Source: an uncultured Candidatus Berkelbacteria bacterium
GTDB taxonomy: Bacteria; Patescibacteriota; UBA1384; XYA2-FULL-43-10; CAINNR01
Reading direction: 5' to 3'
NCBI GenBank assembly: GCA_903851235.1
Contig: CAINNR010000028.1
Coordinates: forward strand, 1 to 54,863
DNA: 54,863 bases
The position numbers and the translations under genes were made by a program. The notes beneath the pieces were generated by a model, which was not told where the DNA came from, searched no databases, and saw only the letters and a program-made list of their open reading frames with translations. Shown one piece after another: positions 43,624 through 48,121 of this stretch (position 1 is the first letter of the stretch; each line of letters starts with the position of its first letter).

Positions 43624-44517
43624 ATGAAATATTTTGCTAGGGTTTCAGTAGCAATTATATTGGCTGTTGCGTTTGTATTTGTTTTAAATGGGCCGATTGT
43701 TGTATTTGCGGCAACTACGCCGGTTATGGGGATGACTAACACATTCAGTATTCTCTCCAGTACCTACACCAACACCGCGGCGGGGACAACTATTGGTGGA
43801 GATCTTGGGTATACCACCGGACCGGCAGTGGCGCCGACGGTAAGTGGCACAACACATGTGGCCGATGCGACATACAACCAAGCAGGGATAGATCAAGCTT
43901 CCGCTTTGGCTAATCTAAATAGTCAGCCAGCCACATTTAATTTCGCGCCGGGAGCAATTGATTTAGCCACCGACACGACACATGGTTCAGTTGGTATTTA
44001 TGCGCCAGGAGTCTATGCGATAACTGGTGCCGCCAATGTTGGTGGAGGTGGAACCATTACTTTAAGCGGTGATGGAACATATATCTTCAGAATGACCGGT
44101 GCGCTTGACACATCGGCCAGCTCTGTGGTTACTTATGCCAATGGCGCGTCACCCTGTAATGTCTTTTGGACACCGGGTGCGGCCACCACACTTGGTGCCA
44201 ACTCTACGTTCACAGGAACTGACATTGATGCTTCCGGTATTACTATCGGCAATGAGGTAACTTGGACAGGGAAAGCTTTGGCATTTGGCGGAACAGTTTC
44301 GACTGATGCCGATACAATTACCGCGCCAAACTGCGCAGCCACAGAAACAGCCGCAGCAGCCGCAGCAGCCGCAGCAGCCAGAGCAGCCGCAGCAAAATTG
44401 CCAAATACCGGAGTTGCTCCTTATCAAAATAGCATCCCGTGGAGCATTGTTATATTTTCTGGTATCTTTGCCATTTCAATTTTGTTTTATATTGTTCGAA
44501 GGAAAAAAACTATTTAA
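43624..44517 (+). CDS. DUF3494 (ice-binding-like) beta-helix surface protein with signal peptide, poly-Ala linker and C-terminal LPXTG sortase anchor.
   Basis: Signal MKYFARVSVAIILAVAFVFVL. DUF3494-type blocks FSILSSTYTNTAAGTTIGGDLGYTTGPAV, ATYNQAGIDQASALANL and ASPCNVFWTPGAATTLGANSTFTG...TITAPN. LPNTG followed by a hydrophobic helix and RRKK. Confidence 0.65.
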   Translation: MKYFARVSVAIILAVAFVFVLNGPIVVFAATTPVMGMTNTFSILSSTYTNTAAGTTIGGDLGYTTGPAVAPTVSGTTHVADATYNQAGIDQASALANLNSQPATFNFAPGAIDLATDTTHGSVGIYAPGVYAITGAANVGGGGTITLSGDGTYIFRMTGALDTSASSVVTYANGASPCNVFWTPGAATTLGANSTFTGTDIDASGITIGNEVTWTGKALAFGGTVSTDADTITAPNCAATETAAAAAAAAAARAAAAKLPNTGVAPYQNSIPWSIVIFSGIFAISILFYIVRRKKTI

Positions 44518-45019
44518 TCTAAGCATTCTGAAATTTGCATAGACTTCTTAGAAATTTATGCAATCAAAAGTTTTGAGACGAACACGCTGATGATTATTGT
44601 TGTTGAGTTTGTCTCGCTTCCGATATTGTCTTTTAGTGCCTAAAAATTTAAGCCGAAGTGGTTCATCATTACTCTCTATAAAAGCTGGCATTCGATCGAA
44701 ACAGGAACAGCCAAGTATCGGGATCGTGCCGCTACATCTGAAAATTCCAAATATTAAGATTGATGTTGCGATTGAGCCTGTGCGAGCCATGATCACCTGG
44801 AGCAGTCATGGTTTGGCGTGTCGTGTGACTTGCATCAGCAAATTTTACCTGACGGTTGAACTTAAATTTGTCTCTTTCAGAGCGATCTTTTTATTATAGC
44901 AGTCAAGACGATTGAACTTGGGGGTTATTTAACAATAATCATTTTGTGCTACAATCATAATTAATATTAATAAAAAGATTGGTCAAGTTTTTGGAGGGGA
45001 TATAGACTACTTAAAGAAA

Positions 45020-48000
45020 GTGTTTTCAAAATTCAGGTCTGGCCCGAGAGTCCTTCAACAAATTCAGAATTCAGAGAGAGTACAAAAGAGCAAAAAAACT
45101 GTACTAAGTTTGGGTTTTGTGCTTCTTGGAATTTTTCTAGTTATCACCATTTTTGGTGTTTATTTTTACATTAAAATGGTCAATGCCGCACCCTTGGTTG
45201 CCTCGAATGTGGCTATTATCGGTACGCCAAATGTCGGGCAAACATTAACCGGCACTTATACTTATACCAATAATCCTTGGACCTCTGTTGGGTCTGTCGG
45301 ATTTTCAAATAATCAAGCAGACTATACTTCGTTAGCCATAGATGCAAGTGGAACTCCATATGTAGCGTATAAAGATGCGGCCAACTCCGGCAAAGCCACG
45401 GTTATGAAATTCGATGGTGCAAATTGGGCTCCAGTAGGGATCGAAGGATTTTCAGATAATACAGCTTATTACATTTCGCTCGCTTTAAATCCAAGCGGAA
45501 CTCCATATGTGGCGTATCAAGACAATGATCGTCTGACTGTCATGAAATTTAATGGCACAGATTGGGTGGCGGTCGGAACGCCGGGGTCATATTCGCAAGC
45601 ATATTATTTTTCGCTGGCAATTAATGCAAGTGGAACTCCTTACGTGGCATTTAGAGATGAAGCGCACGGTTATAAAGCGACTGTAATTAAATTTGACGGA
45701 ACAAACTGGAACATCGTGGGAACTCCAGGATTCTCGGATAATCAAATAAGTCGCATCCCTCTTGCTATTGACTCAAGCGGAACTCCATATGTGGCGTATC
45801 AAGACACCTCTAATAAAGCCGTCGTGATGAAATTTGATGGTACAAATTGGATTGCGGTTGGAACAAAAGGATTTTCAGACCAAGATGCGACCAACATTTC
45901 TCTCGTCATAAATTCCAATGGAACGCCGTATGTTGCTTATATAGACTCGGCGCATTCCACTGGAGCGACCGTGATGAAATTTGATGGCACAAATTGGATT
46001 GCGGTTGGGACAAAAGGATTTTCAGACGGAGGAATAGATTATCCTTCTTTGGCTTTTGACGCCAGTGACACGCCATATGTGGCGTTTTCAGATTGGTCAA
46101 CAGTGGAGGGAGGTGGCGGAGCGGCGACGGTCATGAAATTTGATGGCACAAATTGGCTGCTGGTAGGTAATAAAGGAATTATTGATGGTCGAGCGAATTA
46201 TGTTTCGCTCGCCATTTATAACGGGGCTCCGTATGTGGCGGAAAGTGGTGAGTCGTATGGTGGAGATGCGATCGTAATGCGGTATGACACTCCCGATCCC
46301 GAAGGCGCTTCAACTTATAAATGGTATAGAGATGGAGTTGAGATTCAAGGAGCAACAGTGCAAACTTATACGCTAACACCGGTAGATGCGGGAAAAACAA
46401 TAAAATTTGAGGTAACGCCAATATCGCAAGGAAGCGTTCAAGGAAATCCGGTGCAAAGTAATGGGTTGCTGATAAATTCATTTCCAACAGCTAAAAATGT
46501 GACAATAACTGGAACACCAAATGTCGGTTCAGTATTAACCGGTCATTACACTTATTTTGATGTAGATATAACCGGGGAGGTAGTAGGGTCACCGGGATTT
46601 TCAGATGGACAAGCGGATTACATTTCGGACGTGATAGATTCAACCGGAATACCATATGTTGCCTACGAAGATGAGGCACACGACAATAAGGTTACAGTTA
46701 AGAGATTCTTCGGAGGAAGTTGGGAGACGATAGGATTGCCGGGATTTTCAGACGGAGAAGCAAATTTTGTTTCACTTGCCATTAATTCAAATGGAACTCC
46801 ATATGTGGCCTATATGGATAACTCGGATATTGGACAAGCTACTGTAATGAAGTTTGATGGTTTTAGCTGGGTACCCGTGGGAGCGCCAAGATTTTCAGCC
46901 GGACAAGCAGTCTATGTCTCTCTTGCTATAGACCCAAGCGGGACACCATATGTTGCGTATATGGATGATGGAAACTCTGACAAGGCTACAGTAATGAAAT
47001 ACAGTGGGGGTTGGACAGCAGTTGGAGGTGCAGGGTTCACAGCAGGAGGAGTGAATTTTACCTCCCTTGCCTTAGATTCCAGCGGAACACCGTATATAGC
47101 TTTCAAAGATTACGCAAATTCGCAAAAGGCCACAGTAATGAGATTCACTGATGGAAGTTGGGAGTCGGTAGGCTCGCCGGGATTTTCAGATGGACAATCA
47201 TATTTTAATTCTCTTATGGTAGACTCAGGTGGAACACCTTATGTTGCTTATGCGGATGATGGTAACTCTGATAAAGCCACAGTGATGAAGTTTAGTAGTG
47301 GGAGCTGGGTTGGGGTTGGAGCGCCAGGATTTTCAAAAGGATTAATAAGCTCACCTTCTCTTGTTAAAGATTCAAATGGAACCCTATACATCAGTTATTC
47401 GGATAGCGCGAATAATAATGGGGCTACGGTCGTAAGATTTGATGGCACAAACTGGCAATCATACGATCCGGCCGGGCAAACTGCCTATACTTCACTCGCC
47501 ACTTATGGCGGAACAATATATCTCGCATACCAGGATGGAGATAACTCCAACATGGCTACAGTATTGAAGTCGATTCCTATTGACCCCGAAGGCGCCTCAA
47601 CCTACAAATGGTATAGAGACGGTGAAGAAATTTCAGGAGTAACAGACATAAACTATAGCCCAACATCAGCAGATATCGGAAAAACAATTAAATTTGAGGT
47701 AACACCGGTAGCACAATCAGGATCAACGCCGGGAAATCCATTGCAAAGTGCGGGATTGGTCATCGCAGATATCACGACACCTTCAACTTCCGCTGCTTTG
47801 TCAACAACTTCACCGGCCGCGTCCGGCAGTGCGACTCCAAGTAGCAACAATCCGATTGTTTCAACAAATCCAACTCCCCTGACCTCGCCGGCTGCGCCCG
47901 CTCTTTTCGATCTTACTTCCGAGTCGGCGCAACCGGCGCGACCGAATATAATTCTTTTTATTGTTCTTGCAGTTGCCGCCGGAGCAATACTGACGGTGTC

Positions 48001-48121
48001 GACGATATTTGTCGTTCGACGAATCAGAACGCGGGCGATTGGAAAGAAAATAAAACAGGAGATGCCTATCGGCAAAAATATAAAAGTTGAAAAAATTCCG
48101 AAAGTGAGAAACAATGAGTAG
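45020..48121 (+). CDS. Giant repeat-rich surface protein with N-terminal TM, about 16 tandem ~50-aa beta-propeller-like repeats, two Ig-like inserts, a Thr/Ser/Pro stalk and a C-terminal TM anchor.
   Basis: Repeat consensus GFSDxxAxYxSLAIDSSGTPYVAYxDxxNSxKATVMKFDGTNWxxVG. Two near-identical modules DPEGASTYKWYRDGxEI...GKTIKFEVTP. The start codon is uncertain (GTG at 45020). Confidence 0.55.
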   Translation: MFSKFRSGPRVLQQIQNSERVQKSKKTVLSLGFVLLGIFLVITIFGVYFYIKMVNAAPLVASNVAIIGTPNVGQTLTGTYTYTNNPWTSVGSVGFSNNQADYTSLAIDASGTPYVAYKDAANSGKATVMKFDGANWAPVGIEGFSDNTAYYISLALNPSGTPYVAYQDNDRLTVMKFNGTDWVAVGTPGSYSQAYYFSLAINASGTPYVAFRDEAHGYKATVIKFDGTNWNIVGTPGFSDNQISRIPLAIDSSGTPYVAYQDTSNKAVVMKFDGTNWIAVGTKGFSDQDATNISLVINSNGTPYVAYIDSAHSTGATVMKFDGTNWIAVGTKGFSDGGIDYPSLAFDASDTPYVAFSDWSTVEGGGGAATVMKFDGTNWLLVGNKGIIDGRANYVSLAIYNGAPYVAESGESYGGDAIVMRYDTPDPEGASTYKWYRDGVEIQGATVQTYTLTPVDAGKTIKFEVTPISQGSVQGNPVQSNGLLINSFPTAKNVTITGTPNVGSVLTGHYTYFDVDITGEVVGSPGFSDGQADYISDVIDSTGIPYVAYEDEAHDNKVTVKRFFGGSWETIGLPGFSDGEANFVSLAINSNGTPYVAYMDNSDIGQATVMKFDGFSWVPVGAPRFSAGQAVYVSLAIDPSGTPYVAYMDDGNSDKATVMKYSGGWTAVGGAGFTAGGVNFTSLALDSSGTPYIAFKDYANSQKATVMRFTDGSWESVGSPGFSDGQSYFNSLMVDSGGTPYVAYADDGNSDKATVMKFSSGSWVGVGAPGFSKGLISSPSLVKDSNGTLYISYSDSANNNGATVVRFDGTNWQSYDPAGQTAYTSLATYGGTIYLAYQDGDNSNMATVLKSIPIDPEGASTYKWYRDGEEISGVTDINYSPTSADIGKTIKFEVTPVAQSGSTPGNPLQSAGLVIADITTPSTSAALSTTSPAASGSATPSSNNPIVSTNPTPLTSPAAPALFDLTSESAQPARPNIILFIVLAVAAGAILTVSTIFVVRRIRTRAIGKKIKQEMPIGKNIKVEKIPKVRNNE
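45290..47560 (+). repeat. Tandem coding repeats (~150 nt units) inside the giant surface-protein gene, plus a long-range ~180-nt direct repeat (46290-46470 versus 47575-47760).
   Basis: Recurrent ggaactccatatgtggcgtat and atgaaatttgatggcacaaattgg blocks at the nucleotide level. Confidence 0.6.

What the first reader, a model, noticed from the sequence alone, without database searches (positions are those of the whole stretch)
43624..48121. Adjacent cell-wall-anchored adhesin-like proteins: a DUF3494 ice-binding-like LPXTG protein and a 1033-aa propeller-repeat protein with Ig-like inserts
Gene 43624 has the characteristic DUF3494 beta-helix blocks and a canonical LPNTG sorting signal with a hydrophobic span and RRKK tail. 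LPXTG sortase substrates in a CPR-like genome imply a Gram-positive-type envelope. The next gene encodes about 16 tandem ~50-aa repeats (GFSDxxAxYxSLAIDSSGTPYVAY…ATVMKFDGTNW) interrupted twice by near-identical Ig-like modules. At the DNA level these repeats are long and recombination-prone. Both genes sit downstream of the MVP island and share the repeat modules in their promoters. They are candidates for host or substrate attachment factors.
Basis: partly seen in the sequence, partly recalled or inferred. Interest (0 to 1): 0.5.

Follow-up and report, generated by a model that had tools for sequence, protein, structure and literature searches.

The report
Two unrelated CPR surface proteins
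Two neighbouring genes of an uncultured ultra-small (CPR) bacterium encode ordinary-looking surface proteins: an ice-binding-fold protein with a wall-anchoring signal whose usual partner sortase gene has decayed next to it, and a membrane-anchored protein with two lectin-like propellers.

Summary
Both ORFs exist as described. Gene 1 (43624-44517) is a secreted DUF3494 / IBP-1 beta-solenoid with an Ala-rich spacer and a full LPNTG sorting signal. It belongs to a large, strongly conserved family in Patescibacteria, already labelled "ice-binding family" or "LPXTG-anchored" in databases.

In 18 of 33 related loci with enough downstream sequence, a class-F-like sortase gene lies directly downstream. 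Here the 502-nt spacer before gene 2 holds only a decayed sortase relic (core 44681-44782).

Gene 2 (45020-48121) has no LPXTG. It has a signal anchor, an S/T/P-rich stalk and a C-terminal transmembrane helix. Its repeats number 14, not about 16. They form two seven-bladed beta-propellers, each inserted into a loop of an A9-type Ig domain. The nearest folds are Photorhabdus propeller lectins.

The two genes are not a conserved pair, and the DNA repeats are too diverged to be strongly recombination-prone. Sortases and LPXTG proteins in CPR bacteria are already published.

Verdict: real features, partly misread, and modest novelty (the DUF3494-sortase cassette with its relic, and the nested propeller-in-Ig module). 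An adhesin function is plausible but untested.

The parts
43624..44517 (+). Gene 1 (p1): 297-aa secreted DUF3494/IBP-1 beta-solenoid protein with an LPNTG sorting signal
   Evidence: ORF. Pfam PF11999 at E 3.8e-23. AF2 model pLDDT 85.3. All 31 Foldseek PDB hits with E<=1e-3 are DUF3494 ice-binding proteins, target TM 0.69-0.85 for single-domain chains. About 979 homologues.
43624..43710 (+). Predicted signal peptide of gene 1 (aa 1-29, cleavage after V-F-A)
   Evidence: Hydrophobic segment aa 1-36. A29 and A30 are invariant in 33 homologues. The cleavage site is inferred from the AXA rule.
43726..44334 (+). DUF3494 beta-solenoid domain with its flanking long alpha-helix (aa ~35-237)
   Evidence: Pfam match aa 46-233. 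PDB sequence hits such as 5uyt at E 3.5e-15. DSSP shows helix 82-100 and solenoid strands 129-233.
44335..44394 (+). Ala-rich helical spacer (aa 238-257), encoded by a GCN-rich 9-nt repeat
   Evidence: Helix 238-256 in the model. TRF array 44348-44394.
44398..44514 (+). Cell-wall sorting signal: LPNTG (aa 259-263), hydrophobic span, RRKK tail
   Evidence: 94 of the 120 best homologues have LPXTG in the same place, 85 of them LPNTG.
44597..44899 (+). Sortase relic: 100-aa ORF in the p1-p2 spacer. The recognisable core is 44681-44782 ('VPLHLKIPNIKIDVAI'). No catalytic His/Cys/Arg region remains.
   Evidence: The core matches positions 49-81 of a 207-position HMM built from 20 sortases adjacent to p1 homologues. 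Score 9.8 bits; 0 of 1000 dinucleotide shuffles reach it (maximum 3.8). It is the best hit in the whole window. Same position and strand as intact sortases in 18 of 33 related loci. No such signal in seven other sortase-less loci.
43406..43506 (+). Intergenic repeat modules A+B upstream of gene 1
   Evidence: Families D8, D9, D13. Alignment A2.
44862..44907 (+). Intergenic repeat module B upstream of gene 2, at the 3' edge of the sortase relic
   Evidence: Families D8 and D12. It is 76% identical over 46 nt to the copy next to tRNA-Lys at 38449-38494.
45020..48121 (+). Gene 2 (p2): 1033-aa type I membrane protein with two propeller-in-Ig modules
45089..45190 (+). Signal anchor or long signal peptide of gene 2 (aa 24-57, preceded by KSKK). 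It is lost if translation starts at ATG 45176.
   Evidence: Hydropathy. Homologues carry the same kind of N-terminus directly before the Ig strands. tblastn aligns from p2 residue 19 in L038.
45188..46486 (+). Module 1: two N-terminal strands of an A9-type Ig domain, a seven-bladed beta-propeller, then the rest of the Ig domain
   Evidence: AF2 pLDDT 91.2, pTM 0.81. Foldseek top hits are seven-bladed PLL/PHL lectins, E 2e-12. The spliced N+C parts match IG_AIR9 positions 3-83 of 87 at 45.9 bits, against 33.7 for the C part alone.
46487..47776 (+). Module 2: same architecture, 51% identical to module 1
   Evidence: blastp of module 1 against module 2: 51% over 434 aa. Spliced Ig scores 39.1 against 29.0 bits. 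Blade anchors at aa 543-831.
47765..47944 (+). S/T/P/A-rich stalk (aa 916-975; 72% S, T, P or A)
47945..48118 (+). C-terminal transmembrane helix and 34-aa basic cytoplasmic tail; no sorting motif
48114..48905 (+). Downstream 263-aa membrane protein whose start overlaps the p2 stop by 8 nt (probably co-translated). No family match and not conserved next to p2 homologues.

Best explanation
These are two independent surface proteins of a Patescibacteria (CPR, Berkelbacteria-like) bacterium, brought next to each other by local rearrangement.

Gene 1. It is exported by a Sec signal peptide. It displays a ~205-aa IBP-1 (DUF3494) beta-solenoid on an Ala-rich helical spacer. Its LPNTG signal would be cut by a sortase and the protein linked to peptidoglycan. 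In most relatives that sortase is a class-F-like enzyme encoded immediately downstream. Here that gene has decayed to a relic. Anchoring must therefore use an unlinked sortase elsewhere in the genome, or the protein stays tethered by its uncleaved C-terminal hydrophobic segment. The flat solenoid face probably binds an extended repetitive surface, either a polysaccharide or cell surface, or ice.

Gene 2. It is a type I membrane protein. A signal anchor leads to two seven-bladed beta-propellers, each nested in the B-C loop of an A9-type Ig domain. These are held away from the membrane by a ~60-aa S/T/P-rich stalk and fixed by a C-terminal transmembrane helix. The propellers most likely act as multivalent lectin-like binding modules.

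Shown: the sequences, domains, folds, sorting signal, synteny and the relic. Inferred: cleavage sites, anchoring route, ligand and adhesin role.
For: Gene 1:
- Pfam PF11999 at E 3.8e-23. PDB sequence hits to ice-binding proteins.
- AF2 model pLDDT 85.3, and all 31 significant Foldseek hits are DUF3494 proteins.
- Complete sorting signal, conserved in 94 of 120 homologues.
- An adjacent PF04203 sortase in L041 and in 18 of 33 loci with at least 700 nt downstream. These sortases are nearest to NCBIfam class F (E 1e-31 to 1e-39).
- The relic scores 9.8 bits against a maximum of 3.8 in 1000 shuffles. Seven control loci are negative.
- Loci without an adjacent sortase still keep LPXTG or LAXTG tails.
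- p1 and LepA are both 71% identical to their L036 counterparts, in shared synteny. GC3 is native.
- MurJ and a YkuD L,D-transpeptidase in the window show that a peptidoglycan wall is made.

Gene 2:
- AF2 pLDDT 91.2. Foldseek gives seven-bladed lectins PLL/PHL/CV39L, E 1e-12 to 1e-8.
- 14 blade anchors.
- Splice test on IG_AIR9, and gap-free alignment with a contiguous A9 domain of P0082.
- Hydropathy and stalk composition.
- Homologues use other surface tethers: PG_binding_1, SLH, T9SS.

Taxonomy: LepA relatives.
Against: - No sortase gene lies in the 54.9-kb contig, and the rest of the genome is unseen, so wall anchoring of gene 1 is unproven here.
- Gene 1 did not reach the LPXTG-anchor HMMs at E<=0.01.
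- The relic rests on a 33-aa match of only 9.8 bits.
The packing of the N- and C-terminal Ig strands of gene 2 into one sandwich is therefore inferred from sequence, not measured.
- Identity to lectins is only 10-14%, and no binding residues were identified.
- The start codon of gene 2 is uncertain. The Shine-Dalgarno-like GGAGG lies about 22 nt upstream of GTG 45020. Without the long N-terminus the protein would not be exported.
Confidence: 0.7

Rival explanations
1. Gene 1 is a genuine ice-binding (antifreeze or ice-adhesion) protein. Displayed on the cell surface, it protects or positions the cell in a seasonally frozen habitat.
For: Every solved structure that matches is an ice-binding protein. 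The fold includes the characteristic solenoid plus long helix. Surface or membrane tethering of DUF3494 proteins is discussed in the literature (PMC11645318). Some related loci come from glacier-fed-stream and lake MAGs, judged from record titles.
Against: Identity to proven ice-binding proteins is only 17-27%. The NCBIfam ice-binding equivalog scores 34.5 bits against a cutoff of 400. By record titles, the family is spread over many Saccharimonadales/Patescibacteria MAGs from soils and other non-ice sources. DUF3494 domains also serve in surface adhesion (PMC12337378). No ice-binding-site analysis was possible without coordinates.
Confidence: 0.2
2. One reading: the two genes form a functional pair of cell-wall-anchored adhesins, co-regulated with the MVP island through shared promoter repeats.
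For: The genes are adjacent on the same strand. Related modules lie upstream of both genes and within the island.
Against: p2 lacks any LPXTG-like motif. Adjacency is absent in 38 p1 loci and 80 p2 loci. A decayed sortase gene separates them. MVP and its neighbour have GC3 of 72-78% against 36-38% for p1 and p2. The shared module is a hairpin plus T-run and is not conserved in relatives.
Confidence: 0.1
3. Gene 1 is on its way to being lost. After its dedicated sortase decayed, it is a non-functional leftover.
For: The cognate sortase is reduced to a relic, and no sortase is on the contig.
Against: The ORF, signal peptide and sorting signal are intact. 65 columns are invariant across 33 homologues and are kept here. 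Divergence from L036 equals that of LepA, at 71%. Other lineages without an adjacent sortase also keep the signal.
Confidence: 0.08
4. The propellers of gene 2 are enzymes (sialidase/BNR-like glycoside hydrolase or polysaccharide lyase) rather than binding modules.
For: Foldseek also hits GH BT3686, sialidases and PL25 ulvan lyase. There is a weak Pfam BNR_4 match. The 'KFDGTNW' turn sits where the Asp-box sits in BNR blades; this last point is my own reading.
Against: The conserved residues recur identically in every blade, as expected for structural repeats rather than an asymmetric active site. The best-scoring folds are lectins. There is no sequence-level PDB match.
Confidence: 0.12

Closest known systems
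DUF3494 / IBP-1 ice-binding proteins (e.g. EfcIBP 6eio, AnpIBP 7bwy, SfIBP_1 6bg8, FfIBP 4nu2, IBPv 5uyt)
   Same: Same Pfam family and same fold: a triangular beta-solenoid with a long flanking helix. Target TM 0.74-0.85, rmsd 2.3-3.2 A for the first four named; IBPv 5uyt is a two-domain chain, target TM 0.41-0.42. N-terminal signal peptide.
   Different: Only 17-27% identical. Far below the NCBIfam equivalog cutoff. Carries an LPXTG sorting signal and, in relatives, a dedicated sortase. Comes from a CPR bacterium. Ice binding is untested.
LPXTG surface proteins and class F sortases of Actinobacteria (Cutibacterium/Propionibacterium acnes housekeeping SrtF, which cleaves LPXTG; cited in PMC8225981)
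   Same: Tripartite sorting signal (LPNTG, hydrophobic span, basic tail). The adjacent sortases in relatives score best against the NCBIfam class F model, E 1e-31 to 1e-39.
   Different: The CPR sortases fall below the class F cutoff (107-133 against 166 bits). In this window the gene is a relic without catalytic residues. Here the sortase is dedicated to and adjacent to one substrate, rather than a housekeeping enzyme.
Sortases and predicted sorted proteins in CPR genomes (Kantor 2013, PMC3812714; Meheust 2019, PMC6744442)
   Same: A CPR genome with an LPXTG substrate, consistent with a Gram-positive-like wall.
   Different: Those papers report presence only. In my searches I found no paper describing the specific DUF3494-sortase two-gene cassette.
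Seven-bladed beta-propeller lectins of Photorhabdus (PLL, PLL2-5, PHL) and Chromobacterium CV39L
   Same: Best structural neighbours of the gene 2 propeller: E 2e-12 to 1e-8, target TM 0.56-0.65. Seven four-stranded blades.
   Different: 10-15% identity and no sequence-level match. Those lectins are soluble and are not nested in an Ig domain. Sugar binding by p2 is untested.
A9 domain of plant AIR9 (Pfam IG_AIR9, PF23197) and its contiguous bacterial counterparts
   Same: Both Ig-like modules of gene 2 match this family above the cutoff (57.3 against 27.5 bits).
   Different: In gene 2 the domain is split. About 25 residues lie before and about 65 residues after a ~340-aa propeller.
Uncharacterised propeller-repeat surface proteins (T9SS-sorted in Bacteroidota, SLH-anchored in Paenibacillus/Cohnella, PG_binding_1-anchored in CPR-like contigs)
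   Same: Same ~48-aa repeat. 12,880 representative clusters at E<=1e-3. All are paired with a surface-targeting device.
   Different: Gene 2 uses a plain C-terminal transmembrane anchor. The nested Ig architecture is seen in only 7 of 213 relatives examined.

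Membership tests
LPXTG sortase substrate (gene 1) | N-terminal secretion signal | tested here: met
   Hydrophobic aa 1-36 with a V-F-A motif; A29 and A30 invariant in homologues.
LPXTG sortase substrate (gene 1) | LPXTG pentapeptide followed by a hydrophobic span and a positively charged tail at the C-terminus | tested here: met
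   LPNTG aa 259-263, hydrophobic aa 269-293, RRKK. Conserved in 94 of 120 homologues.
LPXTG sortase substrate (gene 1) | Match to curated anchor models (Pfam Gram_pos_anchor PF00746, NCBIfam LPXTG anchor) | tested here: not met
   No hit at E<=0.01. One homologue (P0158) has a precomputed PF00746 hit. Such short-motif models are insensitive.
LPXTG sortase substrate (gene 1) | A sortase encoded in the same genome | not testable with these tools
   None on the 54.9-kb contig. The adjacent one is a relic. The rest of the genome is not available. Relatives have an adjacent sortase.
DUF3494 / IBP-1 family (gene 1) | Pfam PF11999 above the gathering score | tested here: met
   82.7 bits against 28.7.
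DUF3494 / IBP-1 family (gene 1) | Beta-solenoid with long flanking alpha-helix | tested here: met
   AF2 pLDDT 85.3. Foldseek target TM up to 0.85, rmsd 2.3 A.
Ice-binding protein in the functional sense (gene 1) | NCBIfam ice-binding protein equivalog (IBP_CFB) | tested here: not met
   34.5 bits against a cutoff of 400.
Ice-binding protein in the functional sense (gene 1) | Measured ice affinity (recrystallisation inhibition or thermal hysteresis) | not testable with these tools
   Requires experiment.
LPXTG sortase substrate (gene 2) | LPXTG-like motif about 30-40 aa from the C-terminus | tested here: not met
   No motif. Transmembrane helix aa 972-1002 followed by a 34-aa tail.
Seven-bladed beta-propeller (gene 2) | Seven four-stranded blades closing a ring | tested here: met
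   7+7 blade anchors. DSSP shows seven four-strand sets. Best folds are seven-bladed lectins. Ring closure was read from strand order, not from coordinates.
PLL/PHL-type lectins (gene 2) | Sequence homology and inter-blade sugar-binding sites | tested here: not met
   No PDB sequence hit at E<=0.01. 10-14% identity in structural alignments. Binding sites were not assessed.
IG_AIR9 (A9) Ig-like domain (gene 2) | Pfam PF23197 above the gathering score, full-length coverage | tested here: met
   57.3 bits for the whole protein. Full-length coverage (positions 3-83 of 87) only after the propeller is removed in silico.
BNR/Asp-box propellers (gene 2) | Asp-box S-x-D-x-G-x-T-W in each blade; Pfam BNR models | tested here: inconclusive
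   BNR_4 at 33.8 bits against 27.3, but no single stretch passes. The blades carry F-D-G-T-N-W, which is not the canonical spacing.
Class F sortase (relic 44597-44899) | His-Cys-Arg catalytic triad with a TLxTC-like motif; NCBIfam NF033748 | tested here: not met
   Only HMM positions 49-81 of 207 are recognisable. No NCBIfam hit. Intact neighbours in relatives carry LVTCEG.

The most novel reading that the evidence does not exclude
The DUF3494-LPXTG protein and its adjacent class-F-like sortase form a dedicated surface-display cassette conserved across Saccharimonadia and other Patescibacteria. In the one comparable pair, its solenoid is as conserved as LepA. It could be a core envelope or attachment component of the episymbiotic lifestyle rather than an antifreeze. 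This window would then capture a lineage that lost the dedicated sortase and now relies on another sortase or on membrane tethering.
Probability: 0.2. Interest if true: 0.6.

Novelty: new member of a known kind. Interest (0 to 1): 0.33.

Why it matters
How ultra-small CPR bacteria attach to hosts or particles is largely unknown beyond type IV pili. This work points to two concrete candidates that can be cloned.

- The first is a strongly conserved, sortase-linked DUF3494 surface protein family. It could be tested in the genetically tractable Saccharibacteria.
- The second is a widespread but unnamed seven-bladed propeller module, with about 12,900 representative clusters. Here it is nested inside an Ig domain.

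The work also shows that 'ice-binding' annotations in CPR genomes rest on fold alone. The finding itself does not overturn anything. LPXTG proteins and sortases in CPR are already published, and both proteins belong to populous families.

Tried and rejected
It found nothing in the window or in 34 loci. This was a false negative: the CPR sortases carry LVTCEG. They were found only through precomputed Pfam calls in L041 and then an HMM built from them.
- I looked for the relic signal in seven other sortase-less loci. None had it.
The nested-domain claim therefore rests on Pfam and alignment tests.
- Model coordinates are not exposed, so no contact or face analysis was possible.
- blastn-short of the intergenic modules against all loci gave only self hits. 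The motif search gave 2 hits in the window (one exact), as many as 3 of 100 shuffles.
- Rfam found only the tRNA in 37.9-49.2 kb.
- Exact look-up gave no source names for the window proteins.
- The metagenome scan found no near-identical p2 variants, so copy-number variation could not be examined.
- Literature searches for DUF3494 or ice-binding together with Saccharibacteria or Patescibacteria found nothing relevant.
- I considered that modules B at 38449 and 44862 are att sites flanking a 6.4-kb insert. I did not adopt this. p1 is compositionally native and syntenic with LepA in L036.

Full report
**1. What is there.**

The two ORFs exist at the stated coordinates: 43624-44517 (+, 297 aa, ATG, GGAGG 6 nt upstream) and 45020-48121 (+, 1033 aa, GTG).

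The window is a whole 54,863-bp contig held by NCBI and ENA. Its LepA is 84% identical to a 'Patescibacteria group' protein and 74-81% identical to Candidatus Berkelbacteria proteins. The organism is therefore CPR, and apparently Berkelbacteria-like.

The contig encodes MurJ and a YkuD L,D-transpeptidase with PG_binding_4, so a peptidoglycan wall is made.

**2. Gene 1.**

*Domain and fold.*
- Pfam Ice_binding (DUF3494) matches aa 46-233 at E 3.8e-23, 82.7 bits against a cutoff of 28.7.
- Sequence search of the PDB finds 24 ice-binding or DUF3494 chains; the best is 5uyt at E 3.5e-15.
- An AlphaFold2 model from 33 homologues has pLDDT 85.3.
- All 31 Foldseek hits with E<=1e-3 are DUF3494 ice-binding proteins. 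Target TM is 0.69-0.85 for single-domain chains (0.41-0.42 for the two-domain IBPv 5uyt), best rmsd 2.3 A, identity 17-27%.
- The NCBIfam ice-binding equivalog scores only 34.5 bits against a cutoff of 400.
- Fold membership is therefore secure. Ice binding is not.

*Anchoring signals.*
- The N-terminus is hydrophobic (aa 1-36) with a V-F-A|A site.
- An Ala-rich helix (aa 238-256) follows the solenoid.
- The tail is LPNTG, a hydrophobic span and RRKK.

*The family.*
- About 979 proteins match at E<=1e-5 among the candidates scored, at 56-80% identity.
- Several are named 'ice-binding family protein [Candidatus Saccharimonadales / Patescibacteria]' or 'LPXTG-motif cell wall-anchored protein'.
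- 94 of the best 120 have LPXTG, 85 of them LPNTG. Most of the rest have variants.
- 65 alignment columns are invariant across 33 members.

**3. The missing partner.**

A genome scan returned 34 related loci, mostly Saccharimonadales/Saccharibacteria MAGs. My first motif and SrtA screens found no sortase, but that was a false negative.

In L041, the p1 relative is 69% identical and a PF04203 sortase starts 83 nt downstream. Using it and then an HMM of 20 such genes, I found a same-strand sortase directly after the p1 homologue in 18 of 33 loci with at least 700 nt downstream. There are further partial or more distant cases in L016, L019, L028, L031 and L034.

These enzymes score best against NCBIfam class F sortase (E 1e-31 to 1e-39, below the cutoff) and carry LVTCEG. 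Class F sortase of P. acnes cleaves LPXTG (PMC8225981).

In the window, the best sortase-HMM hit anywhere is the 100-aa ORF 44597-44899. It lies in the p1-p2 spacer, on the p1 strand.
- The aligned core (44681-44782, 'VPLHLKIPNIKIDVAI') covers HMM positions 49-81 of 207 at 9.8 bits.
- None of 1000 dinucleotide-preserving shuffles of the spacer exceeds 3.8 bits.
- Seven other sortase-less loci give no such signal.
- Nothing of the catalytic His/Cys/Arg region remains.
- The relic ends where repeat module B (44862-44907) begins.

I read this as a decayed cognate sortase.

p1 itself is intact.
- It has native GC3 (0.38, against 0.72-0.78 for the MVP island).
- It lies in a conserved neighbourhood (Metallophos - AP endonuclease - LepA ... 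p1) shared with L036.
- In L036, p1 and LepA are both 71% identical to the window's copies.
- Other loci without an adjacent sortase also retain LPXTG or LAXTG tails.

From this I infer that an unlinked sortase usually serves. This cannot be checked for this genome.

**4. Gene 2.**

It has no LPXTG-like motif.

*Topology.* Hydropathy shows a signal anchor (aa 24-57, after KSKK), a 60-aa stalk that is 72% S, T, P or A, a transmembrane helix (aa 972-1002) and a 34-aa basic tail.

*Repeats.* They are anchored at aa 111, 160, 205, 254, 301, 350, 402 and at 543, 592, 641, 689, 738, 787, 831. That is 14 blades in two sets of seven.

*Modules.* The protein is two ~430-aa modules, 51% identical to each other.

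*Fold.*
- Module 1, modelled from 16 sequences, has pLDDT 91.2 and pTM 0.81. It is all-beta, with seven four-strand sets.
- Foldseek's best PDB matches are the seven-bladed Photorhabdus lectins PLL/PHL (E 2e-12, target TM 0.59-0.65).
- These are followed by GH BT3686, sialidases and LGI1 EPTP.
- There is no sequence-level PDB match.

*Nested Ig domain.*
- Pfam's IG_AIR9 hit after each propeller covers only profile positions 28-83.
- Joining the ~27 residues that precede the propeller to the ~67 that follow it restores a match to positions 3-83 of 87. The score rises from 33.7 to 45.9 bits in module 1 and from 29.0 to 39.1 bits in module 2.
- The spliced sequences align without a break to a contiguous A9 domain in P0082.
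- The propeller is therefore inserted in an Ig-domain loop. It is not the case that Ig modules interrupt a repeat array.

*Distribution.*
- Full nested modules recur in P0049 (62% identical), P0002, P0003, P0011, P0017 and P0040, and in 7 of 213 relatives examined.
- The propeller alone is very widespread: 12,880, 7,498 and 2,928 representative clusters at E<=1e-3, 1e-10 and 1e-30.
- It occurs in proteins that carry T9SS, SLH or PG_binding_1 surface tethers.
- No curated family names it.

**5. Are the repeats recombination-prone, and are the genes a pair?**

- DNA copies are 60-83% identical.
- Tandem Repeats Finder sees no array in gene 2.
- The longest exact repeats are 33, 24 and 21 nt.
- About 50 of 80 metagenome loci match over 1.0-1.2 kb, which is one seven-blade unit. 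This fits a fixed blade number.
- No near-identical strain variants were found, so copy-number variation is untested.
- No p2 relative lies near any p1 relative, and the reverse also holds.

**6. The shared upstream modules.**

Five spacers (38449-38494, 41663-41790, 42600-42700, 43406-43520, 44856-44925) share a ~70-nt module A, a hairpin-plus-T-run module B, or both, at 65-89% identity.
- Only the copy beside tRNA-Lys passes the terminator scan.
- They are absent from related loci.
- Their role is open.

**7. Literature.**

- Sortases and predicted sorted proteins were reported in TM7, WWE3 and SR1 in 2013 (PMC3812714).
- A sortase family occurs in more than half of CPR genomes (PMC6744442).
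- A Microgenomates genome encodes one (PMC7143001).
- DUF3494 domains are linked to both ice binding and surface adhesion (PMC12337378).
- I found nothing on DUF3494 in CPR.

**8. Verdict.**

The features are real, but the reading needs correction. There is one predicted wall-anchored DUF3494 protein whose dedicated sortase has decayed. There is also one membrane-anchored double propeller-in-Ig protein. They are not a conserved pair. A binding or attachment role is the most likely function for both, but it is inferred. Novelty is modest.

Noticed in passing
window 38373-42522: The MVP-like gene (38606-41551, minus strand; MVP_shoulder E 3e-22) and the next gene (41866-42522) have GC 60% and GC3 72-78%, against about 43% for the contig. 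They sit directly after tRNA-Lys(ttt) at 38373-38447. This looks like a foreign island at a tRNA gene.
   Followed up: partly
window 38449-38494, 41663-41790, 42600-42700, 43406-43520, 44856-44925: A family of related intergenic modules: A is ~70 nt; B is a hairpin plus T-run plus a TATAGAGCAG-like box. They are confined to this 6.5-kb stretch. The copy beside tRNA-Lys and the copy at the edge of the sortase relic are 76% identical over 46 nt. Whether they are terminators, att-like sites or regulatory elements is unknown.
   Followed up: partly
window 26097-26171 and 29712-29924: A tRNA-Ile with anticodon TAT, and two tandem tRNA-Met(cat) genes.
   Followed up: no
window 48114-48905: A 263-aa membrane protein (signal plus a transmembrane helix at aa 139-169) whose start overlaps the p2 stop by 8 nt. 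It has no Pfam or NCBIfam match and is not found next to p2 homologues.
   Followed up: partly
window 49126-49548 and 49746-50183: Two tandem paralogous receiver-only response regulators downstream of the surface-protein genes.
   Followed up: no
L058 5887-10125: A 1413-aa ORF in a metagenome contig combines the same propeller repeat, Ig/cadherin-like domains and a C-terminal Sortase domain (PF04203, E 1e-19). This is a propeller-sortase fusion.
   Followed up: partly
L038 5109-7880: The closest nested-module homologue (P0049, 62% identical to module 1) is inserted in the ribosomal-protein operon between S5 and SecY.
   Followed up: no
L041 11025-11654, 14020-14616, 19655-20434: The relative with an intact DUF3494-sortase pair also has a second, class-D-like sortase 3 kb away and a heliorhodopsin gene nearby.
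   Followed up: no
L036 11722-13290: In the syntenic relative, the p1 homologue is followed by a large serine recombinase instead of a sortase. This suggests the site downstream of p1 is a rearrangement hotspot.
   Followed up: no
window 7736-8827, 26260-26829, 9626-10864, 27313-29118: Several further predicted secreted or surface proteins on the contig: two with CAP domains and two with fn3. The one at 9626-10864 also ends in a transmembrane helix plus a basic tail.
   Followed up: no
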